Positions 10,209-49,907 of a stretch of DNA of 64,000 nt are shown piece after piece. The notes under the pieces are model-generated. The model did not search any database. It was given only the letters and a program-made list of their open reading frames with translations, and was not told the DNA's origin. Source of the DNA: a virus. Each line of letters begins with the position of its first letter. Position 1 is the first letter of the stretch. The DNA lies in the IMG/VR virus record IMGVR_UViG_3300025645_000048, positions 1-64,000 of that record, one strand, 5' to 3'. Position numbers and translations under genes: made by a program.

Positions 10209-10230
10209 CAAATTAAAAATTTAAATTATT

Positions 10231-11694
10231 ATGGCAGTACAAGCGGTACCCGGATTCGATTTACAACCGAGTTCACAACAAGTCCCTGTATCAACTAATT
10301 ATCTGTCTTCGGCAGACTTTACTTGGTTACAGCAATATCTTCCTGACACTTACGAAAAAGAATTCGAAAGATACGGGAATAGAACAGTAGCATCATTCTT
10401 AAGAATGGTAGGCGCTGAAATGCCTTCTAACTCTGACCTTATCAAATGGGCAGAACAAGGAAGGTTACACAATAAATACCAAGGTTTAACAACTGGATCA
10501 GGAGCAGGTTCTGATACAGCAGTATTCGTTATTCCAGCAGCAGATTTTAATCCAGCATTAGCTTCGCCAAATTTGGCAGCTCTTAGAGCAGGACAAACAG
10601 TAATGTTAAGTTCTTCTGTAGCAGGATCTACATTATCAGCTAAAGGAATTGTAACTGTAGCACCTACTGGAGCTGGAGCTGGAGCTAGAACTTTTAGTGT
10701 AGGATTTTATGAAGCAGCAGGTATGCCTGCATTTACTTCAGGTTCTATAGATTGTTTTATATATGGTTCTGAATTTGCAAAAGGAACAAATGGAATGGTT
10801 GGTTCTAATGAGGCAGATGATTTTATCTTTCAAAACAAACCTATTATTATCAAAGACAAGTATGCAGTGTCTGGTTCTGATATGGCTCAAATTGGTTGGA
10901 TTGAAATCCAGTCTGAAAACGGAGCTAATGGATATTTATGGTATCTTAAATCTGAGCACGAAACGAGACTTAGATTTGAAGACTATTTAGAAACAGCTAT
11001 GGTGGAAGCAGTTCCAGCTGAAGCAGGTTCAGATGCAGGTAATTATCTGCAAGGTTTATTAGCAGGTGGTGCATCAGCAGCAGAAAAATCTGGTTCTGAT
11101 GGTATCTTCTATGTTGTTGAAAATAGAGGTAATGTTTTTGGTGGAGGTAATCCAACAAGTTTAGCTCAGTTTGATAGTGTTATACAAAGACTAGACAAGC
11201 AAGGAGCTATTGAAGAAAATGTTATTTTCTTAAACAGAAACTTCTCGTTTGATATTGATGATATGTTAGCACAACAAAACTCTTATGGAGGTGGTGGTAC
11301 ATCATATGGTCTATTTGACAATGATAAAGACATGGCTTTAAATCTTGGATTTACAGGATTTAGAAGAGGTTATGACTTTTATAAGTCTGACTGGAAGTAC
11401 CTAAACGATCCTACAATGAGAGGTGGTTTAGTTGGTGGAGCAGTTAATGGATTATTAGTTCCAGCTGGTTCAACTACTGTATATGACCAAATCTTAGGAA
11501 AGAATGCTAAAAGACCATTCTTACACGTTAGATATAGAGCTTCTGAAACTGAAGATAGAAGATATAAAACTTGGATTACTGGTTCTGCTGGTGGTGCAAG
11601 AACTTCTGACTTAGATGCGATGGAAGTCAATTTCTTAAGTGAAAGAGCTGTATGTACTTTAGGTGCAAACAACTTCTTTATCTTTAAGGATTAA
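10231..11694 (+). CDS. Major capsid protein
   Basis: 487 aa after the scaffold; QYLPD.YEKEFERYGNR...WAEQGRLH pattern recalled from Bacteroidota podovirus capsids; followed by a terminator. Confidence 0.85.
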   Translation: MAVQAVPGFDLQPSSQQVPVSTNYLSSADFTWLQQYLPDTYEKEFERYGNRTVASFLRMVGAEMPSNSDLIKWAEQGRLHNKYQGLTTGSGAGSDTAVFVIPAADFNPALASPNLAALRAGQTVMLSSSVAGSTLSAKGIVTVAPTGAGAGARTFSVGFYEAAGMPAFTSGSIDCFIYGSEFAKGTNGMVGSNEADDFIFQNKPIIIKDKYAVSGSDMAQIGWIEIQSENGANGYLWYLKSEHETRLRFEDYLETAMVEAVPAEAGSDAGNYLQGLLAGGASAAEKSGSDGIFYVVENRGNVFGGGNPTSLAQFDSVIQRLDKQGAIEENVIFLNRNFSFDIDDMLAQQNSYGGGGTSYGLFDNDKDMALNLGFTGFRRGYDFYKSDWKYLNDPTMRGGLVGGAVNGLLVPAGSTTVYDQILGKNAKRPFLHVRYRASETEDRRYKTWITGSAGGARTSDLDAMEVNFLSERAVCTLGANNFFIFKD

Positions 11695-11708
11695 TATTAT
11701 TGTAAATT

Positions 11709-11744
11709 TTACCCCTACTTAGGTGGGGGTAATATTTATTTTTT
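11709..11744 (+). terminator. Rho-independent terminator after capsid gene
   Basis: TTACCCCTAC / GTGGGGGTAA hairpin followed by a T-rich tract. Confidence 0.7.
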
Positions 11745-11775
11745 ACTGGAATTAAATTAAATTAAATTAAATACA

Positions 11776-12537
11776 ATGAAAAAAAAAGCAAATTACGTTA
11801 CTAAAATATATAAGCTTACTGGTAACAAAGCACCTCTCTCATACATGTTAGCATCAAGGCATTCTCAAAGATCTCCTTTGTTATATTTTGATGAAGAACA
11901 AGGAATTAATAGACCATTAAGATACGCAAGAAATCAAAAAAGTCCATTTGAAGACAAACAAGACGGTAATGCAATTCTAGAACCTATAGTGTTCGATGAT
12001 GGTATGCTAGTAGCTCAAAAAGAAGACCAAGTACTACAAGAGTTTTTACATTATCATCCTGGTAATGGGAAAGTGTTTGTAGAGGTTAATAAAGAGCAAG
12101 ATGCATTGAATGAGCTTTCAGATGCTGAAAGTGTTTTAGAAGCCCAAATAATAGCAAAAGAATTGTCTAGTAATACTCAGAAATTATTACAAGTATCTAG
12201 AGTTTTATTAGGTAATGTGGTTGACAACATGACTATTCCAGAGTTAAAAAGGGATTTGTTAATATACTCAAAGAATAATCCAGAAGACTTTATTAATACG
12301 ATAAACGATCCAATGTTACAATTACAAGATGATGTTTATCAAATATTTAAAGCTGGGTTCTTACAAACACGAAACAATGGTAAAGAGGTTTATTATAACC
12401 TTCCTAACAATAAAAAAAGATTAATATCTGTTCCTTTCGGAGAAGATGCTAATTGGATTGTTGGTTCGTTTTTTCAATCAGATGATGGTGTTGAAATATA
12501 TAAGCTACTTAAAAATCGCTTAAAAAAATCAGAATAA
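11776..12537 (+). CDS. Hypothetical protein of the head module
   Basis: 253-aa ORF with AATTA-repeat leader, directly after the capsid gene. Confidence 0.7.
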   Translation: MKKKANYVTKIYKLTGNKAPLSYMLASRHSQRSPLLYFDEEQGINRPLRYARNQKSPFEDKQDGNAILEPIVFDDGMLVAQKEDQVLQEFLHYHPGNGKVFVEVNKEQDALNELSDAESVLEAQIIAKELSSNTQKLLQVSRVLLGNVVDNMTIPELKRDLLIYSKNNPEDFINTINDPMLQLQDDVYQIFKAGFLQTRNNGKEVYYNLPNNKKRLISVPFGEDANWIVGSFFQSDDGVEIYKLLKNRLKKSE

Positions 12538-23711: not shown

Positions 23712-25835
23712 ATGGCAGTAGATCCAAAAAAATACTCTTTGTATGCTCAACGAGACCTAGAAAAACAGTATGTTAACTGGGGAAAAGTAGCACAAGACAT
23801 TACTACAGGAATAACAACAATAGCAGGTGAGAGACAGGCTAGGAAGGATGAGTTAGATAAATTGACTAATGAAGCCATAGAAAACTTAAGTGCTGTTCCT
23901 GATGTAGAAAGCCAAGATGCTGGCACAATGATTATTAATGCCAGTGACATGTCTAAAAAAAATCTACAAATTCAATCTGATTTGTTAAAAAGAGGGTTAA
24001 TCACTCCTAAAGATTTTAAACTTTTTATGGAGAAACAAAAAACAGGATACTCTTCATATAGTACTGCAATAAAACAATGGGACGGGTGGTATCAAAAATC
24101 CCTAGAAAGGATTGATAAAGAAGAGGCGAGTGCAGGTGAAATGTATAATAACACTTCTTTAGAGGCTTTTGGTAATTTACAAAACAAAGTACTCATGACT
24201 AATCCAGCTAATGGACAATTACAGTTAGTAGAGATGGGTAAAGCACCAGATGGTACTTATACTAAAATGCCAGATTTAAAAAAGAATCCGAGCAAAGTAG
24301 TTAGTCCACATGCTATCAACCTTCGTATGAATATGAAGTCAAACAAAAAAGTTTTGACAGATGAGGCTAAAAAGCTAGTTGATCCAATGGGTAGAATTAT
24401 AAAATCTTATACTGGTGAAGATGGTAAAATGTTTTCTAAAGAAGGTTTTAGGTATAGAGACAGCCAAGATGTAGAAAGAACATATAAGGATTGGCTAAAT
24501 TCTTCAGCCGATGCACTTACAGCAACTAATGATGATCAAATGCAAATATTAGCAGGTCAAGGATACCATATAGCACAGAGTGTAGATGAGTTTAAAGAAA
24601 AGCATGGAGATGACACTTCTAAAATGATTTTAGTTAGTTATGCCTCTGGCACACCAGTTTATAAACTTTTAGGAGAGGGTGAAGATGGTTATAAAGGGCT
24701 AGGTATAGAAGGTGAATCAAAAAAAGTTGCGAGATTCGCGTTAGATGACCAGATAGATGACATGGTTAAGGTAGATCAAGAAGATAAGAGACCACCATCT
24801 GAAGTAGATGAGGAAGATACTCTTATTGGATTTATGGATGATGTAAATGCATTAATATCTGATGACAAAGAAACATTTGATGCCACTGCTCAAGATAGAA
24901 TTATTTCTATGAACAATAGGGCTAGAGAAAAAGGGGGTAGAATGATTGACAATATTGATAGAAATGATAATCAAATTGTGGTTACTTACCAAGATGGATC
25001 AAAAGAATATGTTGAAAGAAAAGGAGACGATGGTACTCCACTGGATGCACAAACACAATCAAGAAAATTATGGAGACTAATTACTAATCTAGAAGACAGT
25101 TCGTATAGAAAAGCTATCAAATTATATGAAGATGAAGGTGGATTTAGATCTTCAGATAGAGAGGCAACAAGAGGAGAGAATAGACTATTCCTTACAACAC
25201 AAAAAGCTGAAGAAGTTTTAGCTAACAAGGGTATGAACCCAGGGGATGATGGTTATGAAGATGCATTAAAAATTGAGATTGTTAATCAAGATAAATCATT
25301 AAATCCTAAAGAACTTGCTGCAATAAAACGAAGAGTGCTTAAAGGTAAAAATATTACATCATACTCTTCATTACCATCTATAGGAATGGAAGACGGTAAG
25401 TTAAAGAACAATAGCAAGAGTGTTATTGGATTTGGGGATGATGGTAAGACTATGAAAACAGGAACTGAACTTATTGAACAAGATATAGGCGCTAGAATTA
25501 GTTGGTCAAGTGATGAAACTTTAACTAATGGTATGGACAAAGTCTTAAAACTATACTTACCAAAATCATTACGAGCTGGTGCCAGAGCAACATTTGTAGA
25601 CAACCCAGATGGTGATGATTTAATTATAGAATATTATGATGCAAAAGGTCAACTGCAAACAATAGGAAAAGAAGTTAATACTGGAAATTTCTTTGTGGGT
25701 GGTGCGCTAAAAGCAGCAGAAATAAATGATATTTTATATGATGCCTCTTTAGATATACTGAATCAAGAAAATGACAGAAGAAGAACAAGAAACAAAAGAG
25801 GAGTATCTAAAGAAGTAATAAAGTTCAATGGATAA
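23712..25835 (+). CDS. Internal virion (ejection) protein
   Basis: 707-aa helical protein between the small and the giant ejection-like genes. Confidence 0.55.
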   Translation: MAVDPKKYSLYAQRDLEKQYVNWGKVAQDITTGITTIAGERQARKDELDKLTNEAIENLSAVPDVESQDAGTMIINASDMSKKNLQIQSDLLKRGLITPKDFKLFMEKQKTGYSSYSTAIKQWDGWYQKSLERIDKEEASAGEMYNNTSLEAFGNLQNKVLMTNPANGQLQLVEMGKAPDGTYTKMPDLKKNPSKVVSPHAINLRMNMKSNKKVLTDEAKKLVDPMGRIIKSYTGEDGKMFSKEGFRYRDSQDVERTYKDWLNSSADALTATNDDQMQILAGQGYHIAQSVDEFKEKHGDDTSKMILVSYASGTPVYKLLGEGEDGYKGLGIEGESKKVARFALDDQIDDMVKVDQEDKRPPSEVDEEDTLIGFMDDVNALISDDKETFDATAQDRIISMNNRAREKGGRMIDNIDRNDNQIVVTYQDGSKEYVERKGDDGTPLDAQTQSRKLWRLITNLEDSSYRKAIKLYEDEGGFRSSDREATRGENRLFLTTQKAEEVLANKGMNPGDDGYEDALKIEIVNQDKSLNPKELAAIKRRVLKGKNITSYSSLPSIGMEDGKLKNNSKSVIGFGDDGKTMKTGTELIEQDIGARISWSSDETLTNGMDKVLKLYLPKSLRAGARATFVDNPDGDDLIIEYYDAKGQLQTIGKEVNTGNFFVGGALKAAEINDILYDASLDILNQENDRRRTRNKRGVSKEVIKFNG

Positions 25836-28800
25836 GTTTAAAGAACTATATCAATACCTCGTTGATAACGAGATGACTGACTTATCTGAAGAAGATTTTA
25901 AGGTTAAATATGCTCAAGGAACAGATAATAACTCTATACTATTTACCTACCTTCAAGACAATGAATTAACTGATTTAGACCAACAAACATTTAATTCTAA
26001 ATACTTTCCACAACAAACACAAGTAGATGTTGATGTTGTTACTGATGAAGTAACAGATGTAAAAGATGGTCAAGAGGTTGATTCATCTACAATGGTAGAA
26101 GAAACTGTTGCTTATGATCCTAGAGAACAAGGTATGGATGACACAATATCCTACAACAACAATGCTACTGTTTTTGAAAAATCACTAGCATATGTTACTC
26201 CAGATTTAATTGATAGGGAAGAAGAAGAGGTGGTTAACAGAATGAATTATCATTTTGGCGACTATGGTTTTACTTTTGAAGAAGGGGGAGGTATGATGTC
26301 TGGCATGGATGGAATGAGTGTTCGTGCAGAAAATGGTCAAACCATAAATGTAAACCTCGATCCAATATTTGGAGATTTATTCGGTGGTGAAACTCAAGAA
26401 TCTAACAAGTTACAGGATTTTTTAAAAAAGAATAAAAAAACTAACCCAGAGCTAGAGGCTTTTAATGCTGAGAATAATCGTAAAAGAAAAAAATACTTTA
26501 GCAAGAAGGCAGTTGATGAGGATTTAGATGATTTAAAAACTAAAGCTACTTCTATAAATAAACGAGCACAAGTTTATCAAACTGAAAAAACCAAGCATGA
26601 AGAGGCTATGGATGGTTTAATGATGGTGCCTTCACAAGAAAGAGGTGCTGAGTGGCAGTTAAAATACCAACAACAGTTAGCGGTTGGTAAAAGACTAAAC
26701 GAACTTAAACAAACAGTATCTAACGAACTCAAGTCATATAGAACTATAGAAAAACAAGTTCATTCTGCTGTAGGAAACTACATGGAAATGAAATTAAATG
26801 ATGGAAGTGGTCCTGGAACATTTTTAAAAGGTTTTTATAATAGTGTGGTGGGAAGAGGTATTTCTCAAATTTTTGCATATGGTGCTGATTTAGGAATAGA
26901 CGGATTATATGGTATAGGTCAAGCTATAAATGAGGATTTTTCTTTACGAAGTCTATCAGGTGTGACTGAAGAAGAGAAAAAAGAAAGGTATATAACTATT
27001 GCAAAAGATTTAGGTTATGATGTTCCTACTGATGTAATGGATAGTGATGAGTCTTATCAAAACTGGTTGAACAGCCTCAGTGAAGAAGATGAGATGGCAC
27101 TAGATGGTGATACTGATTTATTTACTTCACAATTAAATAAAGAAGGAAGAAAGGCATTAAAAGACTCTGGAAAAGAATTAAAAAACATTAATGGTAAGTT
27201 ACAATTATATAATCCTAAAGGTGGAATTTTAGGTAAAGGTGGGTATGAGGATGTTCCTGCAGACTATTTAGACAAAACCAAAAGAGACAAACTAGATAGA
27301 TTAGTTTTGGATGCAGAAGTTAAGTCGGCAAAAAAACCTACTAAAGAGTTTATTAAAAAGAACTGGAATCAATTATTGTCTTTTGATGATGTTTCTGATG
27401 AAAAAATTGCTGAAATGCGAGAAGACAGTATTATAGCCGAGGGTTTATTAGGCTTAGGTGAGTCATTACCGGCTATAGGGTTGTCATTAGCTTCAAGAGG
27501 TAAAATAAAAGCAACTGGACAATTTGCTAATGTAAGAAACATAGCTGGAAGAATACTAGGGTTAGACTCTAAAGGTGGGGTAGCCCAAGTGTTAGCTTTT
27601 TCAGCTTTACAAGCTGAGGCAATGCAAGAGGAAATGGATGCTGATGAAGATTTTAAATATGTTACAGAAGGAGAAAGAAAATTAATTTTAGGCCCTACAG
27701 CATTAACAGTAGCAGTATTAGAAAGATATGGTCTAAGAAATTTATTGCGTAATAAAACTATAATGACTGGTTTAATGAATCAAGTTACTAAGACTTTACC
27801 TCAAGGTGCATCTGCCGCACTATATAAATCTACATTAGAAAAAATAGTTAAAAGTAATATTGCCAAAGGAATATACACTAATAAAGGAGTAAAGTTTAGT
27901 ACTTCTGTAGCAAAAGCAGCCTTAGCTGAAGCAGAAACAGGAGGCTTACAACAGATAGCAGAAATGGGCTACAAGGATATATGGAATGATATGAACGAAA
28001 AAGACATGTTCGATCAACCAGAAATGTGGTCTAAAGAGTTTTGGCAAGAAGCTAAACATGCTGCAATGGCCGAAGCAGTAGGTGGGTTTGTTATGGGTAT
28101 ACCAGGGGGTATAGTAAATGCCTATAAGGTTGGTGAAACTGATAATATATCTGATGCAACATTAGAGTTGTTTGATGCAATAAGAGGTGATAATATTACC
28201 ATGAAAGCATACAAAGAACAATTAAATCTTCAAGTGGCTGATGGTACAAAAACACAAAAACAAGCTAATGAAGAGTTATTGCAATTTGAAACTTTATCTG
28301 GTGCGGCAAACACTATACCAGTTGATTTAGATATAACTGCTAGAAAAAAAGCATTAGGATTAATTTTTGAAAGACAAGGTCTTGAAGCAGAAATGGAAGG
28401 GATGGATAAAGACCTAGGTTCTTACAAGAAAAAAGAAGCTAGAGTTGAAGAAATTAAAAATGAATTATCACAAATTGGAAGTGAACAAGCTGATGATTCT
28501 GCATCGCTAGAAAAGGAAAGTGAAAATATCCCTACATTTGTTTCTGAAGAAAAAATTACTAGAGAGGAATTAAATGAGCCTGATACTTTTACTCACAGAA
28601 CAATGAGTAAAGATGCAATTACTAGTTGGGCTGATGGAGGTCAAGTGATTGGGAAAAAAGAAGATTTAGGAGATTTTGACTCTAGAGTACCCAATAACCC
28701 ATTAGAAGCGGCATCAAAAAAAGAAGGCTTCAATAGGCAGTCTCCTAATTTCCAAAAAGGTGGTGTTTATTCTGGAAAATTAAAACCTGGAGAGTTTGTT

Positions 28801-31800
28801 GTTGTTGCTAAAGGAGAAAATAAATTTATACCTAGTGCAAGTTTTCAAAACAGAAAAACTTTTGAAAAAAGTGGTGGAATTTCAACTTTAAAACCAGATT
28901 CAAGAGATTTATCTAATTTTAATTTATATAAAGTAAATGAAAAAGGAGAGTTAGTAAAACAAAATTGGAACAATTATAAAACAAGTAAAAATGCCATTCA
29001 AAAGTCAAAAACAACGAGCATGGATGTACGCCAATCTTCCGGAGATGGCAAAACGATGGGAAAAGGAAACAAAGGGACCACTACCCAACAGAGCACCCAA
29101 GAAAACCAAGATGCGTCTCAAACGAAATCGGAAGAGAAAGTAACTAAAGAAGAGCAAGAAGATATTGACGCCTTTTTTGGTCAAGAGGTTGGGTTAGAGG
29201 TTGAATCTATTTCTGACAACTTATCTATAAACCGTCAACAAAAAGATGGTAGTAAGGTTAAAGACACTAAATTAAGCACACAAATCATAAGAAGAGCCAA
29301 GTTAGCTGCAAAAGCTATAAAAAAAATTGCTCCAAATGTAAAAATGGTGCTACACCAAACAACAGAAGAGTTTGAAAAGTTTGCACCTAAAGGAAATGGA
29401 TATTATAATCCAAACACTAAAGTAATTCATATAAACTTAGCAACTGCAAAAAATAAAACTGTAGCTCATGAGGTATTTCATGCAGTGTTTTTAGAAAAAA
29501 TTGCCGGCGGTGACAAAGGTGCAATAGCAGCAGCCGACAGATTAATTAAATCTGTAAGAAAAAGTTTGCCTAATGATTCTATGTTAGCAAAACGAATGGA
29601 TGCATTTGCTAATAAATATAAAGACAGTGCGTTCCAAAATGAGGAAAGAGTAGCTGAGTTGTTTTCTTTAATGGCTACAGAGTACAAATCTTTAACTAAA
29701 CCTGCTAAAAACAGAGTAGTTGAGTTTATTAAAAGTGTAGCAAAAAAATTAGGTATAAAAATTTCTAATGATTTTACAAGTTCTGATGAAGCTGTTATTG
29801 ATTTTTTAAATACATTTTCTAAAAAAGTACAGTCTGGTGAAGAAGTAGTTGAGTCTGACTTAACTGCATTAGATGAAATAAATGAGCAACTAGCTCAAGA
29901 TGGTACTGCACCAATTGGTAATCCAACTGAAATAAATAAACCTCAAGAGGGGAGGCAGTCTAAAATAAAGTTTAATGATAGTTATCCTTTATCCTTAGTT
30001 ACTCCAGAAAATAAAATAGATATAAATAGTCTTATTGATAATATTTCTAACAAAAAACAAAAAGTTTGGTTTTGGGTTGCAGATCAGTTAGGGCTAGGTA
30101 ATGTAGATGGAATTGAAATGGATGCTGGACCAAGTTTTTCTTTACAACCAGAAAACTTAAAGAAAAAAACTATATGGGCAAGTGGTTTAGATAATTCAAA
30201 ATTAAGCAAAAACATAGATGCAGCCGATTATATTTTTATTATAAGTGGATCACCTGAAACTAGTAAATTGTTTAATAAAAAAGTATTTGATAGATATATT
30301 AAAGATTTAGGTGATTATGCAAAATTTAAAAAAGATGCATTAGCAACTAATCCAACAAAAGCAATAAGAGATAGTCTTGAAGAATTTGATAGTTGGTCGG
30401 CAATGAGAAAAAGTCCAAAAAGAAAAAACTTCTTAATAGCTCTAAACGAACAAAGCAGAAAGCCTAACACTAAATTTCATGCATTAATTAATAATTTAGG
30501 AGGATTTGTAAGTGCTCAATCTTTAAGAGATGGGTTTTACAGAGATAATAATTTTGCTCAAAATGATATAATGATGGTGTTAAAGCCAACAGGATTAGGA
30601 GGTAAATCAAATCATTCTACTTATTCTACAGACATCTTAGGGGATGTTGTGGGAGTTCCAGATGCAAAAATAAATGCTAGAGAAATAGTTCCAGAAAATA
30701 TAAAAAAGAAAATAGAGGGAACAAATATTTCAGTGCAAACTTCTAGTATAGCTCCTTATGGCGGTTCTACTCAAACAGCAGTAAAAACCATCACTAAACC
30801 TCAAGAGGGGAGGCAACAAAGAGATACACTCGCTGAGATAAATGTGTTTTATAATATGAATAACAGTGGCTTTTTTAGTCCACAAGTCGATACATATAGA
30901 TTACAAAAAGAATTAGATGCTTTAAACCAAGGTTATAAACTAAGACAGGCACCATACAATCAGTATGGTCAAGGTGGTGGATACTCTATATATGACTCTA
31001 GAGGTAAAAGAGTAAGACCACCTAAAGACAGTGAGTATAGACAGGGTAGGCAACAGAAGATGGATAAAGAAAACGACCTTCTAAAAATTATTGTTATAGG
31101 TAGGGAACAAGGTGGATTTAAAGATGGTGCTATTAAAGATTATTTAAAAAGAAGAAAAAAAGAAGTAAATGGCAAGTTAGTTCCTGCATATTCTGCAGCA
31201 GAAATAAACAATGCTATGGAGGTGGTTGAAGGATACAATGAAGATAAATATTTATTTAAATCATTTCCTAAAAGTTTTAACAACATAGAGGGAGGTTTTT
31301 TAGCTGGTCTAAAATTGTTAAAAAAGGTAAATGCATACTACAAAAGACTTGTAACAAATAACGAAAAAAAGAAATCTGTAGCTGTTAAAGGCACACCATT
31401 AACTGAAGAACAGATAAGAGAAAAAGTAATAGAGTATTTTGTTAATTTAAAAGAATATCAAAATGAAGGTGCTCAAGGTAATAGGTTGACTGCACAACAA
31501 ATGGCTATGGAAAAAGATTTGTTAGAATTACTTTTACCCGATCCATTAAAAGCTAACCCACAAAGAATTAGAGCTATAAACAAAAGAATTAGAGAAATAA
31601 AGTTTGATGAAAAGAATTTAAAAAAGGTACAAATAGCATTAAGAAATTATATAAGATCGGTTCTTCCAAGAGATTTATATACTCCAGGTGAAATTGATAA
31701 CTTAATTAATAAAGTAAATAGAATTAATAAAGAAAATTTTGACTCTGTTAAAAATGAGGTGTTTAAAATTGTCACTACTAAAACAAATAAATCTTTACAG

Positions 31801-34800
31801 GAATCTATATTTGATATATTGAACAAGAAGTATCAAACAATTCAGTCTGGTAGACTAAAAGGAGTAACAGTTGACAACGAAACTAGAAAAAAAATAGAAA
31901 GAATTAATGCAATGGTAGTAAACCCTAAAGCTACCGCTGATGAGATTATGAAAGCTAATGAAAAGCTTTTAAAAGAATACAACAAAATAACTCAAGAAGA
32001 GGTTGATATAGATAAATCTTTTGTGTTTTCTAAAAACACAAGTGAAAAAAGGACACAAGTTAAAAGCAGTTTAGATGAAGATGCATTGAGTAGATTGGCA
32101 GAAATTACTACAGCTATGCAAATAAACAATTCATTTTTAGCAGAAATGAACGATCCAAATAAAACCACTTTATTGTCTAATGTATTAAATTCTCTAAATC
32201 AAATGCAAGAGACTGGTAGAGCAAACTTAGAATATGTTCTTCTTAATGATGCAATTACTTACAGAGAAAATGAAAGGAAAGTTTTTAGAGAGATGACTGG
32301 CATAAATTTAGATGCAAAACAATCTTTAATAGACCAAGGAGTTTCTGAAAATGAAATAACAGAGGGAATGATTAATGTAGAGTTTAATAGACTTAAGCAA
32401 GATGTATCAATCGACGCTAAAAGAAAGGGTGGATTAAGACCTCCTACAGTCAGAAAAAGATTTCAAAACATAATTAATAAAATGTTAAACAGTTTTGATC
32501 GTAATGTATTTGCATCAGCTGAAGATTTAACAGGCTTAATAGATAGAATTGTAACTCAACCAGGTGAATTATTTGAAGGTGACACACAGACGATTGTACA
32601 AAAAGCAGTAAGAGAAGCTACTAGAATGTACAAGGCTAGGATGATGGGACAGAAGGATATTTTTGAAAATAAAATGACTGAATTGTTTGGCAAAAGATGG
32701 TTAAAAAACAACGCTAAAAACTCTCAACAGACTGAGATTATAATAATTAGTCAAGCTAAAAATGACCAACTAGTAAAAGAAAAGGAAAAGGTATTGGCTG
32801 ATAAATCTTTAACAAGTGGTGAAAAAACAGCAAAAGTAAAAGGATTAGATGAGGCAATAGATACTAATACTATTTATATAAGTCAAAATCAGTTGATGTA
32901 TTACTACTCTCAAATGCAAGATCCTTCGCTTCAAGAAAGTTTTATAAATACTTTTGCACCTACTGGTAATTATAAAAATGAATTTGAGTCTAGAATAAGA
33001 AAAGAGTTAGAGGATAAGTTAGATCCTAGATTAAAAGAATTTTCTAGTTGGATGATAAATGACTACTACCCATCTTTATATAATCACTACAACGAAACAT
33101 ATAAACAGATTTACCGAACAGACATGCCTTGGAATCAATTTTATGCAGGTAGAGTTTATAGAAAAAATGCCAATGATTCTGAAGGTTTAGATTTATTAGC
33201 TGACAGTAATAATTCTTGGATGACAAATGTAGGTGCTGCAAGTTCTAAAGTTAGATTACAGAACTCTAATCCAATCTCAATGGTTGATGGTATGGATGCT
33301 CTAATTAATTATACTAAAGATATGGAGTACTTTGCTGCTTATGCAGTTCCAGTAAGAAATATTAATAAAATATTTACATCTCCTGCTATTAAAGAAACAA
33401 TTCAAGAAAAGTATGGTAAAGATGTGTGGCAATATATTAATGATTCGATAGAAAAAATTGCAAACAAGGGTGTGCAGAATCAAGGTGAAACTAAGGTTAT
33501 AAATTTATTTAACAATACATTTTTATTATCTCGCCTTGGATTAAACCCAACTCTTACTTTAAAACAGTTGACTTCATTTGTAACCTATGGAAATGAAATA
33601 GGTTATATGAACTGGGTAAAAAACAGTGCAATAAGTTTAGCGAGTATAAAAACAAACTTCAGAGAAGTTATGGACAACTCTATAATTTTACAAGATAGAT
33701 ATGGTAAACCTATAACTAGAGCTGTAGAAAATTATTCTGACAGTAAATTTGAAGAACTTAATGCTAGAGATTTTTCTAATTTTGGTTTAGGTAAACAAAA
33801 TTTAGATAAAATATCAAAAGTATTAATGTTTACAACTATGACTGGTGATAAGGGTGCAATCTTAATTGGTGGTATACCTAACTATGTGTATTATAAAAAC
33901 CAGTATAAAAAGAAAAACCCTAATGCATCTAAACAAGAAGTAATTGATTATGCAATAAGAAAGTTTGAACAAGATACATTAAGAACTCAACAGTCTTATG
34001 ACCTACAAGACAAAGACTACTTTCAAAGCAAAGGCTCTATGGTTAGAGCATTCAATATGTTCTTGACTACACCAAAACAATACTTTAGAAAAGAAATTAT
34101 TGCAATGAGAAACATATATAGACTCGCATCGAGTGGAGGGTTTCTGTCTGCAAAAAACGCTAAATCAGGTAGAGGAACAATGTTCCAAAATTTACGAACA
34201 CTAGGTGTTTATCATGTGGTTATGCCGGTATTCTTTCAATGGGTATCTTCTGGTTTTCCTGGATTAGCAAGAGGCTGGGATGATGAAGACACTGATGACA
34301 TTGCTTTTGCAGCTATGCTTGGTAATTTAAATGCATTGTTTATATATGGTAAAATAGCTGAGACAATAGTAGATGCTGCTGCGGGTAAGCCATGGGTAAG
34401 CAAACCATCAACAATTCCAGTATTAGGGCAAATAGCTTTACTGGGTGATTTATATGTGAGAATGAATAATGCTACATCCCCTGAAAAACAAAAAGAACAC
34501 TTTAATAAATTAATGGCTGAGTTAGTGGCTACTACTGGTATACCAGCTCCACAGCTAAAAAGGTTTTATGAAAATTGGAGTCAATTAGATAAAAGTAAAA
34601 GTTTTGGAGACTTTGTTTTAAAACTATTTAACTTCTCTCAATATGCTCAAAAGAAAAAGAAAAAAGGTGGAGGATTGACTAAAGCAGAACAGAAAAAATA
34701 TTTTCCAGATTTATTTCCAGATGATTTAGAAGGAACAAATGAGGCAAGTGAAATAAAAAAAGAACAAAGAAGATTAAGACAAGAACTTTTAGATGATATG

Positions 34801-34806
34801 TTTTAA
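25828..34806 (+). CDS. Giant internal virion / polyvalent-like protein with zincin motif
   Basis: 2992 aa; GYYNP...IHINL...VAHEVFH...EERVAE metallopeptidase-like motif (HEVFH at 29467-29481). Confidence 0.7.
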   Translation: MDKFKELYQYLVDNEMTDLSEEDFKVKYAQGTDNNSILFTYLQDNELTDLDQQTFNSKYFPQQTQVDVDVVTDEVTDVKDGQEVDSSTMVEETVAYDPREQGMDDTISYNNNATVFEKSLAYVTPDLIDREEEEVVNRMNYHFGDYGFTFEEGGGMMSGMDGMSVRAENGQTINVNLDPIFGDLFGGETQESNKLQDFLKKNKKTNPELEAFNAENNRKRKKYFSKKAVDEDLDDLKTKATSINKRAQVYQTEKTKHEEAMDGLMMVPSQERGAEWQLKYQQQLAVGKRLNELKQTVSNELKSYRTIEKQVHSAVGNYMEMKLNDGSGPGTFLKGFYNSVVGRGISQIFAYGADLGIDGLYGIGQAINEDFSLRSLSGVTEEEKKERYITIAKDLGYDVPTDVMDSDESYQNWLNSLSEEDEMALDGDTDLFTSQLNKEGRKALKDSGKELKNINGKLQLYNPKGGILGKGGYEDVPADYLDKTKRDKLDRLVLDAEVKSAKKPTKEFIKKNWNQLLSFDDVSDEKIAEMREDSIIAEGLLGLGESLPAIGLSLASRGKIKATGQFANVRNIAGRILGLDSKGGVAQVLAFSALQAEAMQEEMDADEDFKYVTEGERKLILGPTALTVAVLERYGLRNLLRNKTIMTGLMNQVTKTLPQGASAALYKSTLEKIVKSNIAKGIYTNKGVKFSTSVAKAALAEAETGGLQQIAEMGYKDIWNDMNEKDMFDQPEMWSKEFWQEAKHAAMAEAVGGFVMGIPGGIVNAYKVGETDNISDATLELFDAIRGDNITMKAYKEQLNLQVADGTKTQKQANEELLQFETLSGAANTIPVDLDITARKKALGLIFERQGLEAEMEGMDKDLGSYKKKEARVEEIKNELSQIGSEQADDSASLEKESENIPTFVSEEKITREELNEPDTFTHRTMSKDAITSWADGGQVIGKKEDLGDFDSRVPNNPLEAASKKEGFNRQSPNFQKGGVYSGKLKPGEFVVVAKGENKFIPSASFQNRKTFEKSGGISTLKPDSRDLSNFNLYKVNEKGELVKQNWNNYKTSKNAIQKSKTTSMDVRQSSGDGKTMGKGNKGTTTQQSTQENQDASQTKSEEKVTKEEQEDIDAFFGQEVGLEVESISDNLSINRQQKDGSKVKDTKLSTQIIRRAKLAAKAIKKIAPNVKMVLHQTTEEFEKFAPKGNGYYNPNTKVIHINLATAKNKTVAHEVFHAVFLEKIAGGDKGAIAAADRLIKSVRKSLPNDSMLAKRMDAFANKYKDSAFQNEERVAELFSLMATEYKSLTKPAKNRVVEFIKSVAKKLGIKISNDFTSSDEAVIDFLNTFSKKVQSGEEVVESDLTALDEINEQLAQDGTAPIGNPTEINKPQEGRQSKIKFNDSYPLSLVTPENKIDINSLIDNISNKKQKVWFWVADQLGLGNVDGIEMDAGPSFSLQPENLKKKTIWASGLDNSKLSKNIDAADYIFIISGSPETSKLFNKKVFDRYIKDLGDYAKFKKDALATNPTKAIRDSLEEFDSWSAMRKSPKRKNFLIALNEQSRKPNTKFHALINNLGGFVSAQSLRDGFYRDNNFAQNDIMMVLKPTGLGGKSNHSTYSTDILGDVVGVPDAKINAREIVPENIKKKIEGTNISVQTSSIAPYGGSTQTAVKTITKPQEGRQQRDTLAEINVFYNMNNSGFFSPQVDTYRLQKELDALNQGYKLRQAPYNQYGQGGGYSIYDSRGKRVRPPKDSEYRQGRQQKMDKENDLLKIIVIGREQGGFKDGAIKDYLKRRKKEVNGKLVPAYSAAEINNAMEVVEGYNEDKYLFKSFPKSFNNIEGGFLAGLKLLKKVNAYYKRLVTNNEKKKSVAVKGTPLTEEQIREKVIEYFVNLKEYQNEGAQGNRLTAQQMAMEKDLLELLLPDPLKANPQRIRAINKRIREIKFDEKNLKKVQIALRNYIRSVLPRDLYTPGEIDNLINKVNRINKENFDSVKNEVFKIVTTKTNKSLQESIFDILNKKYQTIQSGRLKGVTVDNETRKKIERINAMVVNPKATADEIMKANEKLLKEYNKITQEEVDIDKSFVFSKNTSEKRTQVKSSLDEDALSRLAEITTAMQINNSFLAEMNDPNKTTLLSNVLNSLNQMQETGRANLEYVLLNDAITYRENERKVFREMTGINLDAKQSLIDQGVSENEITEGMINVEFNRLKQDVSIDAKRKGGLRPPTVRKRFQNIINKMLNSFDRNVFASAEDLTGLIDRIVTQPGELFEGDTQTIVQKAVREATRMYKARMMGQKDIFENKMTELFGKRWLKNNAKNSQQTEIIIISQAKNDQLVKEKEKVLADKSLTSGEKTAKVKGLDEAIDTNTIYISQNQLMYYYSQMQDPSLQESFINTFAPTGNYKNEFESRIRKELEDKLDPRLKEFSSWMINDYYPSLYNHYNETYKQIYRTDMPWNQFYAGRVYRKNANDSEGLDLLADSNNSWMTNVGAASSKVRLQNSNPISMVDGMDALINYTKDMEYFAAYAVPVRNINKIFTSPAIKETIQEKYGKDVWQYINDSIEKIANKGVQNQGETKVINLFNNTFLLSRLGLNPTLTLKQLTSFVTYGNEIGYMNWVKNSAISLASIKTNFREVMDNSIILQDRYGKPITRAVENYSDSKFEELNARDFSNFGLGKQNLDKISKVLMFTTMTGDKGAILIGGIPNYVYYKNQYKKKNPNASKQEVIDYAIRKFEQDTLRTQQSYDLQDKDYFQSKGSMVRAFNMFLTTPKQYFRKEIIAMRNIYRLASSGGFLSAKNAKSGRGTMFQNLRTLGVYHVVMPVFFQWVSSGFPGLARGWDDEDTDDIAFAAMLGNLNALFIYGKIAETIVDAAAGKPWVSKPSTIPVLGQIALLGDLYVRMNNATSPEKQKEHFNKLMAELVATTGIPAPQLKRFYENWSQLDKSKSFGDFVLKLFNFSQYAQKKKKKGGGLTKAEQKKYFPDLFPDDLEGTNEASEIKKEQRRLRQELLDDMF
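28991..29143 (+). CDS. Overprinted 50-aa basic protein MPFKSQKQRAWMYANLPEMAKRWEKET..., +1 frame inside the giant gene
   Basis: ATG 28991 to TAA 29143; A-rich leader; locally high GC and CG content; resembles a recalled stand-alone small phage protein family. Confidence 0.7.
   Translation: MPFKSQKQRAWMYANLPEMAKRWEKETKGPLPNRAPKKTKMRLKRNRKRK
29937..30815 (+). repeat. 21-bp direct repeat TAAACCTCAAGAGGGGAGGCA flanking an in-frame module
   Basis: Exact copies at 29937-29957 and 30795-30815, both encoding KPQEGRQ. Confidence 0.9.
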
Positions 34807-35961: not shown

Positions 35962-37194
35962 TTACAAATTTAGTAAATCCTTTTTGAAATGATTAAGGGT
36001 GTAATCTTTCTTCTTTATAACACTCTTGTATATGTCATCCTCAATACCACCCTCAGAAAATACCCAGTATATTTTATTATACAACCTATCTTTTGTGGTC
36101 ATTCTGTCTCTTGATTGCCAGTAACTTGTAGCACTAAAGTCTATATTGTAATATACCAAGGCTTGTGCATTTTTTAAACTTATACCCTCTCTTCCTGAAA
36201 CTATTTGTAGTGCAATACTTTTATTAGTAGTGTTAAACTCTTCTAGTTCTGTACACAAACCTTTACGATATACTTTTTTTAAAGCATTTAACTCTTCTTT
36301 AAACTTATAAAATATAGCAATCTTTTTACTTCTAAATTGTTTTCTGATAAATTCTGCCTTAGATAAATCTATAACCATAGACTCTCCACTTTCAAATTTA
36401 ACTGTACCAGAATACAGTTGATGTAATTTTGACATAAGCTTTACTGCTGTGTCTGCCAATATTACATTCTCCGATCCTTCAACAACCCTATCTTTGGTAA
36501 GCCTTCTTACTAATGATTTTATCACACTAGTAAGTGGAACATGTAAAACTTCTTCATCAGTGTTAACTTTAAACCCAGCTTCTTTCTGAGTATATGCAAT
36601 TGTATATGGTTTCATATCATCGAGTATTGATTGTAACCCATGACTCCAGTCATTTATAGTCATGGCTCCTATTTTTTTTTGTTTAACTTGTACATATTGT
36701 TTAGCAAACTTGTAAAAACTTTTATATTGATTAAAAGGATTATTTCTAATAGCATAAACCTGGTGGTACATTTGTGAGTAAGATTCTGGTGTTGGTGTAC
36801 CAGATAAAAGAATTACATATGGATTATGTTTTAATATAAACTCTTTAACTGTCTTGGCTCTAAGGCTAGGTTTTGGAAATGCACCCATCGAATGTGCCTC
36901 ATCACAAACTATTAAGTCCCACTTTGTCTCATGAGACACTTTATGTAGGCTTTCGTAATTTATTATAGTAATATTATAGGAAGGATTAAGCATATCATAA
37001 TCTCCTTGTATACTGGAGATTGCTTTTTTCTTTGTAATAAATAAGAGGTTATGAACTGGAAGAGCAAGACTCATAGCCAAACTTGTCAAGGTTTTACCAG
37101 TCCTAACCTCCATAGCAAGATACAAAAATCCATGTTTTTTTAAAACCTCTGTACCTTTTTCTACGATGTCAGATTGATATTGTCTTAATTTCAT
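35962..37194 (-). CDS. SNF2-like superfamily 2 helicase
   Basis: LRQYQ Q-motif, RTGKT Walker A, DEAH, SGTP, SGREGISL, QSRDR; ATGA overlap with the methyltransferase stop. Confidence 0.9.
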   Translation of the reverse strand: MKLRQYQSDIVEKGTEVLKKHGFLYLAMEVRTGKTLTSLAMSLALPVHNLLFITKKKAISSIQGDYDMLNPSYNITIINYESLHKVSHETKWDLIVCDEAHSMGAFPKPSLRAKTVKEFILKHNPYVILLSGTPTPESYSQMYHQVYAIRNNPFNQYKSFYKFAKQYVQVKQKKIGAMTINDWSHGLQSILDDMKPYTIAYTQKEAGFKVNTDEEVLHVPLTSVIKSLVRRLTKDRVVEGSENVILADTAVKLMSKLHQLYSGTVKFESGESMVIDLSKAEFIRKQFRSKKIAIFYKFKEELNALKKVYRKGLCTELEEFNTTNKSIALQIVSGREGISLKNAQALVYYNIDFSATSYWQSRDRMTTKDRLYNKIYWVFSEGGIEDDIYKSVIKKKDYTLNHFKKDLLNL

Positions 37195-38381
37195 ATTATG
37201 TCTTTGCATTTATTAACCACTGCTTGAACAACATCTACAGTCACTGCATTCCCACACATCTTATATCTTTGAGTGTTGCTTACCTTTTTAGTCACCCCAT
37301 CATATATACCATACTCAGTCCAGTTATCAGGAAATCCTTGTAGTCTTTCACACTCTATAGGTGTCAGTCTTCTTATAGATTCATTTTCTATTATGCCATT
37401 GGGTTCAGAGGACCTTAAAGTAAATGCATCCTCACCATCAGATTTAACTGCATTACCAAATTTATCTGAATTGCCTAGTTGTGTTGGCACAACTATACTA
37501 TCTAATGGACTTGTTGTTACTGCATTAGCCACATTATCTTTTCTTGTTTCTAAATCTTTACCATTATCTCTTGTTCTCAATGCACCAGATAAAACTAAAG
37601 GAGGCATGGTGCTAATATCTTTTTCACTGTGTCTTCTTGCAGATAGACAAGGGCTATCACCCTCAGTTCTTATTCGTAGTCCTTCATCATTTCTGTAGTC
37701 TGCAGCTCTTACTATCTTAGGATCTTTATAGTCTCTTGACAACAAAGCTGGTGCAGTATCTTTAAAACCAAACTCTCTTTCAGAAAAGTTACTTACCTGG
37801 GCTACTCCTTTTTGTATTCCTTGAGTCTTGCTTGAGCTGATTTCGATAGGAAAAACTCCTTTCCAATCTCTTGGGGGGTTTGCAGAATATCCGACAAGGT
37901 AGATTCTCTCTCTGTTTTGGGGTAGAAACCACGATGTATTACACAATTGCCATTCAAGTCTATAACCCCCAATGTTGGTAAAGGCTTGGAGGATTGCCGC
38001 AAAATCTCTGCCATCGTTTGAGCTGAATGTTCCTTTAACATTTTCCCAGATAAAAATTCCTGGTCGGCATTCATCAATGAGTCTAATCGCTTCAAGGATA
38101 AGGCTCGATCTATCTCCTCCCATCCCTTTACGATTTCCAGCGACACTAAAGTCTTGGCAAGGGCTTCCAAAGGTGATAGCGTCAATTTTTGGTAACTGTG
38201 TTCCTCGAACATCTGTAACTGATCCGACATACTTACTATTTTTAAAATTATATTTATACACTGCAATGGCATGAGCATCAACTTCTGAAAAGAAAGTTTT
38301 AACTTTATAACCCGCTTTTTCAAAACCTTTGTGAAATCCACCAATTCCTGAAAAAAGGTCTAAAACAGTGATTTTCTTCAT
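37191..38381 (-). CDS. DNA (cytosine-5)-methyltransferase
   Basis: DLFSGIGG (I), GSPCQDFS (IV), ENV (VI), QNRERIY (VIII), RRLTPIECERLQGFP (IX), GNAV (X). Confidence 0.95.
   Translation of the reverse strand: MKKITVLDLFSGIGGFHKGFEKAGYKVKTFFSEVDAHAIAVYKYNFKNSKYVGSVTDVRGTQLPKIDAITFGSPCQDFSVAGNRKGMGGDRSSLILEAIRLIDECRPGIFIWENVKGTFSSNDGRDFAAILQAFTNIGGYRLEWQLCNTSWFLPQNRERIYLVGYSANPPRDWKGVFPIEISSSKTQGIQKGVAQVSNFSEREFGFKDTAPALLSRDYKDPKIVRAADYRNDEGLRIRTEGDSPCLSARRHSEKDISTMPPLVLSGALRTRDNGKDLETRKDNVANAVTTSPLDSIVVPTQLGNSDKFGNAVKSDGEDAFTLRSSEPNGIIENESIRRLTPIECERLQGFPDNWTEYGIYDGVTKKVSNTQRYKMCGNAVTVDVVQAVVNKCKDII
37802..38230 (-). CDS. Nested alternative-frame ORF, putative methyltransferase beta-like subunit
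   Basis: Frame open for 180 codons inside the MTase; ATG at 38230 (MSDQLQMF...); ends ESTLSDIL...FFLS, reminiscent of M.EcoHK31I-type beta polypeptides. Confidence 0.6.
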   Translation of the reverse strand: MSDQLQMFEEHSYQKLTLSPLEALAKTLVSLEIVKGWEEIDRALSLKRLDSLMNADQEFLSGKMLKEHSAQTMAEILRQSSKPLPTLGVIDLNGNCVIHRGFYPKTERESTLSDILQTPQEIGKEFFLSKSAQARLKEYKKE

Positions 38382-48805: not shown

Positions 48806-48985
48806 TTATTTGTTAGGGTTAATGGTTACACAATAAGAAGAACTTCTTCCATCGGTTAATAATTCTTTAAATTTTAGACTTAATTCCTCTAGTCCATCTG
48901 TACTATTTTGAGGTTGAGTCTTAATCTCCATAGACACTAGGTTAGATAATTTTGCTAAGTCTGTAAGTGTTAGTCTTGTAATCAT
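48806..48985 (-). CDS. 59-aa hypothetical protein (MITRLTLTDL...), not in ORF track
   Basis: TAACTATG start; fills the gap. Confidence 0.55.
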   Translation of the reverse strand: MITRLTLTDLAKLSNLVSMEIKTQPQNSTDGLEELSLKFKELLTDGRSSSYCVTINPNK

Positions 48986-49670: not shown

Positions 49671-49679
49671 TTTATAGCT

Positions 49680-49877: not shown

Positions 49878-49907
49878 AAAATTTTCTGTTTTCTTTTTGT
49901 TTGAATT

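What the first reader, a model, noticed from the sequence alone, without database searches (positions are those of the whole stretch)
28991..29143. Overprinted small basic gene hidden in the +1 frame of the 2992-aa ejection gene
Seen: AATTATAAAACAAGTAAAA-ATG opens MPFKSQKQRAWMYANLPEMAKRWEKETKGPLPNRAPKKTKMRLKRNRKRK-stop. It is too short for the ORF track. The host frame here is a low-complexity linker (NAIQKSKTTSMDVRQSSGDG...), and the DNA is locally richer in GC and CG, as expected under dual coding. From recall (unverified), MPFKS..QR.WM.AN.PE.AKRW is a stand-alone small phage protein family. Inference: a real nested gene, similar in character to the tiny basic ORFs at 52.5-54.7 kb, possibly a DNA-condensing or core peptide co-expressed with the ejection protein.
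Basis: partly seen in the sequence, partly recalled or inferred. Interest (0 to 1): 0.8.

Follow-up and report, generated by a model that had tools for sequence, protein, structure and literature searches.

The report
Hidden small gene inside giant phage gene
A 50-codon gene for a small, positively charged phage protein is written one base out of step inside a 2992-codon virion gene; relatives carry the same gene hidden in one of two different large genes or standing alone, selection protects the hidden frame, and public annotations miss it.

Summary
ORF 28991-29143 (+) lies in the +1 frame of the 2992-aa ORF 25828-34806 and is its local GC and CpG peak. It belongs to a large phage family: 63 small homologues, 3473 clusters by profile and at least 376 viral loci.

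Of the 72 loci that my motif pattern found among the 80 kept:
- 33 carry the gene embedded in the same relative frame, 20 in the gene after the portal and 13 in giant genes.
- 34 carry it alone, and 5 as the N-terminus of a longer protein.

Selection acts on the hidden frame. In 16 independent embedded pairs, 87 changes are silent in the small frame only, against 26 silent in the host frame only. Stand-alone copies have 1-10 stops in the host frame (0 of 34 open). Eight of eight records searched hold exactly one copy. The start site is unstructured and A-rich.

Function is inferred, not shown: a head- or portal-associated basic peptide or N-terminal tag. GenBank records MW202828.1 and NC_055854.1 leave it unannotated.

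This scan has noted the same hidden gene before on other genomes.

The parts
28991..29143 (+). Embedded small gene: 50 codons plus TAA. The product has an N-terminal two-helix hairpin (residues 6-15 and 17-26) and a Lys/Arg-rich disordered tail.
   Evidence: ORF; family; selection on this frame; AlphaFold2, mean pLDDT 74.5.
28961..28990 (+). Putative translation-initiation region of the embedded gene. It is A-rich (60% A in the 25 nt before the ATG, with A at -1 to -4), contains no ATG and has no Shine-Dalgarno sequence, as expected for a phage of Bacteroidota.
   Evidence: the upstream PWM score is reached by 32 of 933 internal same-strand ATGs, and 14 of 41 real gene starts score lower; the -30..+30 fold is -1.4 kcal/mol, and only 1.6% of 910 internal ATGs are as unstructured (real starts average -3.2). 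Abstract of PMC6847099 read.
25828..34806 (+). Host gene: a 2992-aa giant ORF, the last gene of the rightward virion module. It has an HExxH motif about 109 residues after the embedded gene. No Pfam or PHROG family matches.
   Evidence: Homologous giant genes in L017, L015, L052, L038, L039 and L036.
28990..29142 (+). Dual-coded stretch of the host frame (host residues about 1055-1105). It is hydrophilic and low-complexity, and it is kept free of stops.
   Evidence: Host-frame amino-acid identity among embedded copies (0.50-0.51) is no higher than that of the unused third frame (0.51-0.55). The Phe-3 codon is always TTC in embedded copies.
9063..10208 (+). Gene after the portal (381 aa, PHROG 16786, function unknown). 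It is the orthologue of the gene that hosts the embedded copy in 20 related loci, but it carries no copy here.

Best explanation
28991-29143 is a real protein-coding gene, translated on its own and embedded in the +1 frame of a tolerant linker of the giant virion gene.

Shown:
- It is a bona fide member of a very large phage family: a near-invariant N-terminus MPFKS, a conserved two-helix hairpin, then a Lys/Arg tail.
- Purifying selection acts on this frame and hardly at all on the host frame.
- Each genome searched keeps exactly one copy.
- Within this one phage lineage the gene is found embedded in the post-portal gene, embedded in the giant gene, or free just downstream of the giant gene.

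Inferred:
- Ribosomes start internally on the late structural mRNA at an A-rich, unstructured site. Hosts are Flavobacteriia-type, which use no Shine-Dalgarno sequence.
- The embedded state arose when the host ORF extended or fused across an older small gene and was then purged of stops.

Inferred more weakly:
- The product works in head assembly or the virion interior. The hairpin would dock on a head component (portal or procapsid interior) and the basic tail would bind DNA.
- In other phages the same module would serve as an N-terminal tag that carries cargo domains.
For: Family membership: 63 small homologues, the best at 88% identity and E 3.9e-20. There are 14 invariant columns in 21 sequences. 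The profile search finds 3473 clusters at E<=1e-3 and 597 at E<=1e-10, and the match begins at residue 1-3 in most of the 150 listed hits. At least 376 viral loci encode it.

Embedded arrangement recurs: 33 of the 72 loci my pattern found, plus the window, always with the host frame at small +2. Twenty lie in orthologues of window gene 9063..10208 and 14, counting the window, in giant genes.

Selection:
- Amino-acid identity in the small frame is 0.68-0.71, against 0.50-0.51 in the host frame and 0.51-0.55 in the third frame.
- In 16 independent embedded pairs, 87 changes are silent only in the small frame and 26 only in the host frame, although opportunities are 0.16 and 0.226.
- Third-position entropy is 0.93 in embedded copies against 1.32 in stand-alone ones, and Phe-3 is always TTC when embedded, because TTT AAR would create a host stop.
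- The host frame is open in 0 of 34 stand-alone copies, which carry 1-10 stops.
- Strain-level contigs from two runs differ from the window at 26 of 1292 bases. Only one difference falls inside the ORF: 29038 T>C, silent in the small frame and Ser>Pro in the host.

One copy per genome in 8 of 8 records.

L036, whose giant protein is 50% identical to the window's, has no embedded copy. It has the gene free, 10 nt after the giant gene's stop, and that copy's best five matches are giant-embedded copies.

Start site.

Head association: in 10 of 18 stand-alone or fused loci whose large neighbours I scanned, a portal gene lies within about 650 nt (8 loci) or a large-terminase gene is adjacent (3 loci, one of them also among the 8). 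The 20 loci embedded in the post-portal gene add to this.

Tag-like behaviour: 19 of the 120 listed longer forms carry Pfam domains behind the module. These are DUF5661 (6), InPase (4), GH24 lysozyme, tail lysozyme, Mu F, SET, AAA kinase, HTH domains and DnaJ.
Against: - There is no direct evidence of translation or of presence in the virion.
- Neither the small protein nor the giant protein has a Pfam hit, and PHROG 1375 is hit only weakly (E 0.02).
- The fold model is a bare helical hairpin with no structural match in the PDB.
- I chose neighbours for the context scan by size, so the 10 of 18 is a biased sample. L016 sits among ribonucleotide-reductase and primase genes, and the Streptomyces phage FlowerPower member (gp48) sits next to a holin.
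- Only 3 of 20 long forms that I scanned myself passed a Pfam cut-off.
- Cellulophaga phage phi38:1, a cultured member of the wider group, gave no match to the profile, so the gene is not universal.
- Eight of the 80 loci did not fit my pattern and were left out of all counts.
Confidence: 0.8

Rival explanations
1. The gene is real, but its product is a cytoplasmic regulator or host-takeover peptide, or a lysis accessory, and not a head or virion component. Its position in structural genes would then reflect only late co-expression.
For: FlowerPower gp48 lies between a 'peptidase' and the holin. L016 lies among DNA-metabolism genes. Some long forms carry HTH (TetR_N, GerE) or DnaJ domains. There are no virion data.
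Against: A portal or large-terminase gene neighbours the small gene in 10 of 18 scanned loci, and the gene is embedded in the post-portal gene in 20 loci. Fusion partners include Mu F, lysozymes and InPase, which are typical of packaged proteins (passages of PMC5512222 read).
Confidence: 0.25
2. The small ORF is the start of a longer product. Ribosomes would begin at 28991, slip -1 in the Lys-rich tail into the host frame, and make a tag fused to the C-terminal ~1900 residues of the giant protein.
For: A -1 shift from the small frame does land in the host frame. In other phages the module is the N-terminus of long proteins. The window has one heptamer of slippery form at codon 28.
Against: Slippery X XXY YYZ heptamers occur in only 6 of 34 embedded copies, against 13 of 34 stand-alone copies, and at no conserved position. 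The stop codon and the tail length of 40-67 codons are kept in embedded copies.
Confidence: 0.05
3. The ORF is an untranslated relic: a small gene captured inside the giant gene that is merely still open.
For: There is no expression evidence, and a 50-codon alternative-frame ORF is not improbable in itself.
Against: 33 other embedded copies are intact and carry the substitution pattern of a coding frame. It is the only copy in each complete genome. When it is lost from the giant gene it is kept elsewhere (L036). The start region resembles a real one.
Confidence: 0.05
4. The conservation belongs to the host protein, or the giant ORF is an assembly frameshift artefact joining two genes.
For: The host frame does show some constraint: the codon-2 third base is only A or G, giving Ile or Val in the host.
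Against: The host frame is no more conserved than the unused frame, and homologues standing alone carry stops in it. Contigs from independent runs span the stretch without indels (table 4 and records 13 and 16). Thirty-three other assemblies show the same layout.
Confidence: 0.02

Closest known systems
Lambda Rz/Rz1 two-component spanin genes, embedded architecture (Kongari et al. 2018, PMC6139136; passages read)
   Same: A small phage gene lies wholly inside a larger one in the +1 frame. The same function also occurs elsewhere in overlapped and separated layouts, and gene callers routinely miss the embedded gene. Here I see embedded and separated layouts. In L016, L018 and L035 there is also an upstream ORF in the host frame that runs 83-122 nt into the small gene.
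   Different: The product has no Cys, no lipobox and no signal sequence, so it is not an o-spanin. The hosts are virion genes, not an i-spanin. In the passages I read, the paper states that no spanin family mixes the embedded layout with the others. This family does, and it does so in two non-homologous host genes.
T4 internal proteins with an N-terminal capsid-targeting sequence, and the small prohead-core proteins gp67/gp68 encoded beside the portal gene (recalled; no call)
   Same: These are small or N-terminally tagged proteins destined for the head interior and encoded next to the portal gene. A short N-terminal element is shared by unrelated cargo proteins.
   Different: There is no sequence similarity that I tested. 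Processing by a prohead protease is not indicated here, and presence in the virion is untested.
Mu F / SPP1 gp7 head protein as N-terminal carrier of effector domains (Iyer et al. 2017, PMC5512222; passages read). That SPP1 gp7 binds the portal is recalled, not seen in a call.
   Same: It is encoded by the portal gene, it is an N-terminal module fused to very diverse enzymatic domains, and the giant host gene resembles the paper's phage polyvalent proteins (HExxH motif, position in the virion module).
   Different: The module is about 40 residues, not a Mu F domain, and Pfam does not match it. One long form carries both the module and Mu F (P0246), so the two are not equivalent.
PHROG 1375 and Pfam PF11450 (DUF3008), both of unknown function
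   Same: PHROG 1375 aligns to residues 3-43 (E 0.02) and matches the module in five of the ten long forms scanned (E 7e-6 to 2e-4). DUF3008 is the nearest named cluster in the ESM Atlas (score 0.85, carried by 15% of members).
   Different: Both are below convincing thresholds for this protein. Pfam gives no hit at E<=1. A full-text search found no paper that mentions DUF3008.

Membership tests
Unnamed 'MPFKS' small basic phage protein / N-terminal module family | N-terminal motif: M-P-F-K-S, then Q at 8, W-M-Y at 11-13, N15, P17, A20, W23, T27. | tested here: met
   All 14 invariant columns of alignment A1 are present in the window peptide. E 3.9e-20 to the best homologue.
Unnamed 'MPFKS' small basic phage protein / N-terminal module family | The motif sits at the very N-terminus and is followed by a Lys/Arg-rich tail. 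Total length is about 40-70 aa when the gene stands alone. | tested here: met
   The 50-aa product has a strongly basic, Lys/Arg-rich tail over its last 15 residues.
Unnamed 'MPFKS' small basic phage protein / N-terminal module family | Purifying selection acts on this reading frame. | tested here: met
Embedded o-spanin (Rz1-like) | Embedded in the +1 frame of a larger phage gene. | tested here: met
Embedded o-spanin (Rz1-like) | Lipoprotein signal with a lipobox Cys, and a host gene that encodes an inner-membrane i-spanin. | tested here: not met
   The 50 residues contain no Cys and no hydrophobic stretch. The host is a 2992-aa gene of the virion module.
Pfam PF11450 DUF3008 | Match to the Pfam model. 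| tested here: not met
   0 families at E<=1. The only support is an Atlas lead at 0.85.
PHROG 1375 | Match to the PHROG profile. | tested here: inconclusive
   E 0.02, 16.3 bits, residues 3-43. Long family members hit it at E 7e-6 to 2e-4.
Packaged head-interior protein (T4 CTS proteins, Mu F / SPP1 gp7 type) | Physically present in procapsids or virions, with targeting that depends on the N-terminal element. | not testable with these tools
   Only gene context and fusion partners bear on it.
Polyvalent protein (the host gene) | Several recognisable effector domains, including a zincin-like metallopeptidase. | tested here: inconclusive
   An HExxH motif is present, but there is no Pfam or PHROG match. 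HExxH is found in 8 of 14 giant hosts.

The most novel reading that the evidence does not exclude
The ~40-residue MPFKS module may be a portable head-loading tag of tailed phages: a free N-terminal hairpin that docks on the portal or procapsid interior, plus a basic tail that rides on the DNA. Alone it would be a minimal packaged DNA-binding peptide. Fused, it would load lysozymes, InPase, SET, kinase and other cargo for co-injection. Because it must be made with the head proteins, large virion ORFs have repeatedly grown over it. That would make this a natural series of separated, overlapped and embedded states in which the older gene is the embedded one.
Probability: 0.25. Interest if true: 0.8.

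Novelty: new member of a known kind. Interest (0 to 1): 0.65.

Why it matters
- Annotation: a gene present once per genome in hundreds of uncultured phages, and in at least one cultured genus, is invisible to standard annotation. It is missing from MW202828.1 and NC_055854.1.
- Evolution: one family is seen free, partly overlapped, and fully embedded in two non-homologous genes of one phage lineage. The host frame shows the signature of the younger coding layer. This reverses the usual picture of overprinting and allows the steps to be studied: loss of stops, and TTT changing to TTC.
- Function: an invariant N-terminal module on very diverse cargo-like domains suggests a general sorting or delivery signal in phage heads. 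If that is confirmed, it would help predict which unknown phage proteins are packaged and injected.
- Testability: a cultured system exists (Flavobacterium phage Elemovirus on strain BAL314).

Tried and rejected
- Pfam, PHROG and fold searches gave no function. Pfam gave 0 hits for the peptide. The giant gene and four post-portal hosts gave 0 hits in PHROGs and Pfam. Foldseek against the PDB gave nothing at E<=0.001.
- I folded the portal (811 aa, alignment A3) together with the small protein (alignment A2) using complex prediction. The verdict was 'no answer' (score 0.00), and the controls were not run. This is no evidence either way.
- The -1 frameshift fusion idea was rejected.
- A fixed position relative to an HExxH domain was rejected. 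The motif is absent from 6 of 14 giant hosts, and the distances range from 109 to 1084 residues.
- I looked for a decayed remnant of the gene in the window's own post-portal gene and found nothing recognisable in the other frames.
- My by-eye impression that the window's giant gene has a ~170-aa insertion relative to L036 could not be confirmed. L036's fragment starts at the locus edge and the global alignment there is ambiguous. What stands is that the whole L036 record has one copy only, the free one.
- blastn of 2.5 kb against cultured phages found no match. tblastn of the peptide found only 7 Streptomyces phage records. The profile search was needed to find the copies in MW202828.1 and NC_055854.1. 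Cellulophaga phage phi38:1 gave no match, which may reflect either divergence or absence.
- Literature. Searches for 'DUF3008' found 0 papers. Searches on Elemovirus and on overlapping or overprinted phage genes (listing only) turned up no description of this family. In PMC5512222 I read only the passages returned by two term searches, and none mentions such an N-terminal motif. Its supplementary domain lists (40 new domains) were not opened and could include it.
- Eight of the 80 loci (L013, L020, L023, L025, L046, L063, L076, L079) did not match my pattern and were dropped from all counts.
Full report
OBSERVATION. The window is the first 64 kb of an 89,305-bp IMG/VR virus record. The ATG at 28991 opens a 50-codon ORF that ends at 29143. 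It lies in the +1 frame of the 2992-aa ORF 25828..34806. The stretch is the compositional outlier of that gene. GC is 0.444 against 0.31-0.34 elsewhere, and CpG observed/expected is 0.93 against 0.28-0.30. Only 13 (GC) and 17 (CpG) of 2942 sliding windows reach these values. The ORF's length alone proves little, because two other same-strand alternative-frame ORFs of 41 and 43 aa exist in the gene.

IT BELONGS TO A LARGE FAMILY. A search of 5.8 billion proteins, limited to 27-88 aa, gave 63 homologues, the best 88% identical at E 3.9e-20. Twenty-one aligned members share 14 invariant positions, all within the first 31 residues, followed by a Lys/Arg tail. A profile search of 1.84 billion representatives found 3473 clusters at E<=1e-3 and 597 at E<=1e-10. 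In most of the 150 listed hits the match begins at residue 1-3, in proteins of 46 to 761 aa. Among the 147 newly fetched hits, 61 are 90 aa or shorter, 49 are 91-200 aa and 37 are longer. Pfam has no model for it. PHROG 1375, of unknown function, is hit weakly (E 0.02). The ESM Atlas places it among unnamed viral clusters of 50-52 aa, with DUF3008 only as a lead. One annotated cultured member is gp48 of Streptomyces phage FlowerPower, 72 aa, lying between a 'peptidase' and the holin.

THE EMBEDDED LAYOUT RECURS. A scan of IMG/VR gave at least 376 confirmed loci, of which 80 were kept. My motif pattern found the gene in 72 of the 80; the other eight were dropped from all counts.
- In 33 loci, and in the window, the whole small ORF lies inside a larger open frame, always with the host frame at small +2.
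- Thirty-four loci have the gene free, and five have the module as the N-terminus of a protein longer than 90 aa.
- The hosts fall into two classes. Twenty are genes of about 400 aa, three of them cut by contig ends. Fourteen, counting the window, are giant genes of 1261-3311 aa, some also cut.
- BLAST against the window's proteins shows that the ~400-aa hosts are orthologues of window gene 9063..10208, the gene between the portal and the 487-aa virion structural protein. Seventeen of the 20 hit it directly, and the other three sit after a portal orthologue at a contig end. These phages are close kin of the window's phage, with terminase 62-69% and portal 44-53% identical.
- Eleven of the 13 giant-host loci share the window's upstream structural genes. 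L009 and L071 show no similarity at E<=1e-5.
- The post-portal hosts start 43-80 codons before the small gene, with a conserved N-terminus, so the small gene is truly internal.
- The window's own post-portal gene has no copy and no recognisable remnant.

ONE COPY PER GENOME, MOVABLE POSITION. Profile searches of whole records found exactly one copy in each of eight records: the window's genome, MW202828.1, NC_055854.1 and five IMG/VR records, four of them rated complete. L036 is the closest relative by giant protein (50% identity over 1387 residues; the next gene is 77% identical). It has the small gene free, 10 nt after the giant gene's stop, and none inside. That free copy's five best matches are giant-embedded copies. 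In L016, L018 and L035 an upstream ORF in the host frame ends 83-122 nt inside the small gene, which is a partial overlap. The family therefore shows separated, overlapped and embedded layouts.

SELECTION IS ON THE SMALL FRAME.
- Over the first 27 codons of the embedded copies, mean pairwise amino-acid identity is 0.68-0.71 in the small frame. It is 0.50-0.51 in the host frame, no better than the unused third frame at 0.51-0.55.
- In 16 phylogenetically independent embedded pairs, 87 differences are silent only in the small frame, 26 only in the host frame and 68 in neither. The mutational opportunities are 0.16 and 0.226, so the excess is about 4.7-fold. Stand-alone copies give about 6.7-fold.
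- Dual coding leaves marks. Third-position entropy is 0.93 in embedded copies against 1.32 in free ones. The Phe-3 codon is always TTC when embedded, since TTT followed by AAR would make a host-frame stop, but varies freely when the gene is alone.
- Free copies carry 1-10 stops in the host frame; 0 of 34 are open. The open host frame of embedded copies is therefore not a by-product of the family's sequence.
- At strain level, contigs of two other runs differ from the window at 26 of 1292 bases, and only one difference lies inside the 153-nt ORF. That change, 29038 T>C, keeps Leu-16 and changes Ser to Pro in the host.
- In the same runs, contigs of other organisms pile up only on 28987-29071, the conserved core.
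- The stretch occurs in 15 runs at half or more of its sampled words; the 20 rows that hold any part of it come from 14 studies (freshwater and marine). Eight of those rows may be the source sample.

TRANSLATION START (INFERRED). The nearest cultured relatives infect Flavobacterium, Cellulophaga, Tenacibaculum and Maribacter. Bacteroidota do not use Shine-Dalgarno sequences. Initiation there is tuned by low mRNA structure and upstream bases such as A at -3 (abstract of PMC6847099). The 25 nt before the embedded ATG are 60% A, with A at -1 to -4. A matrix built from 41 gene starts of the window scores this site above 96.6% of 933 internal same-strand ATGs and above 14 of the 41 real starts. The -30..+30 fold is -1.4 kcal/mol, against a mean of -7.7 for 910 internal ATGs (1.6% are as open) and -3.2 for 28 real starts.

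WHAT IT MAY DO (INFERRED). AlphaFold2 with 76 sequences predicts two helices (residues 6-15 and 17-26) and a disordered basic tail, with mean pLDDT 74.5. There is no structural match.
- Context: I scanned the large neighbours of 18 free or fused loci, chosen by size. In 8 a portal gene lies within about 650 nt, and in 3 the large terminase is adjacent, one locus counting in both groups. That makes 10 of 18. The rest gave ribonucleotide reductase and primase, a virion structural protein, unknown PHROGs or nothing. Together with the 20 loci embedded in the post-portal gene, this ties the gene to the head module.
- Fusions: 19 of the 120 listed longer forms carry Pfam domains behind the module. 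They are DUF5661 (6), InPase (4), GH24 lysozyme, tail lysozyme, Mu F, SET, AAA kinase, TetR and GerE HTH domains, DnaJ and rubrerythrin. In my own scans, 3 of 20 long forms passed a Pfam cut-off: InPase, DUF5661, and SAM lyase with DUF3293. InPase is described among domains of packaged polyvalent proteins, and Mu F as a head protein fused to effector domains (passages of PMC5512222).
- The simplest reading is a head-interior or portal-associated basic peptide whose hairpin also serves as an N-terminal tag for cargo. This part is inference.

ORIGIN (INFERRED). The small gene is phylogenetically widespread, reaching from Flavobacteriia phages to Streptomyces phages. The host frame across it behaves like a young, unconstrained coding layer. 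The embedded state is therefore best explained by the host ORFs growing over an older gene. In other phages the free gene sits just after the portal, exactly where the post-portal host's variable, low-complexity N-terminal extension now covers it. Whether the two host classes acquired it independently, or a stop-free cassette moved between them, is open.

KNOWN PARALLELS AND NOVELTY. The closest known arrangement is the embedded Rz1 gene inside Rz of phage lambda, with overlapped and separated variants in other phages and frequent annotation failure (PMC6139136, passages). This peptide lacks every o-spanin feature. I found no paper describing the family (limits are given under Tried and rejected). 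GenBank records MW202828.1 (embedded copy at 9596-9724, minus strand, inside the gene at 741..12320) and NC_055854.1 (52512-52640, inside gp18 at 48851..59935) leave it unannotated. Both are +1-frame copies. Earlier notes of this scan report the same hidden gene in other genomes. They are not independent evidence, but they agree with what I measured. I file it as a new member of a known kind, the embedded out-of-frame phage gene, and keep the tag hypothesis as the bolder reading.

Noticed in passing
window 52571-54743 (+): A tightly packed run of at least ten tiny ORFs (31-113 aa), mostly Lys/Arg-rich, lies back to back with spacers of a few bases. A protein search of the whole genome with the 50-aa peptide finds no second copy at E<=10, so they resemble the embedded gene in composition only.
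   Followed up: partly
window 25828-34806: The giant gene is strongly CpG-depleted (observed/expected 0.28-0.30) except in the embedded ORF, where the ratio is 0.93.
   Followed up: partly
window 9063-10208: This post-portal gene (PHROG 16786, unknown function) is the orthologue of the gene that hosts the hidden ORF in 20 related loci, but it lacks the ORF here. Its N-terminal ~100 residues are acidic, low-complexity and poorly alignable.
   Followed up: yes
L084 (MW202828.1 9596-9724, minus strand) and L086 (NC_055854.1 52512-52640): These embedded copies are a distinct, Cys-containing subtype of the family (42-43 aa). Both are unannotated, and both lie in the +1 frame of giant 'structural protein' genes.
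   Followed up: yes
L082 4001-4219 (Streptomyces phage FlowerPower gp48): This annotated 72-aa family member has an Ala/Lys-rich tail and lies between a 76-aa 'peptidase' and the holin, which is a lysis-cassette context unlike the head context seen elsewhere.
   Followed up: no
window 28987-29071, run X15: Summed word depth rises from about 46 to 360-675 because contigs of other organisms in the same sample match only the conserved core of the small gene. The family is therefore abundant and diverse in that sample.
   Followed up: partly
window 37802-38344 (-): A 180-aa alternative-frame ORF lies inside the 396-aa ORF 37191..38381 on the minus strand. I did not examine it, but other notes of the scan mention it.
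   Followed up: no
L016, L018, L035: An upstream ORF of 122-144 aa in the 'host' frame ends 83-122 nt inside the small gene. This is a partial-overlap layout, intermediate between the free and embedded states.
   Followed up: partly
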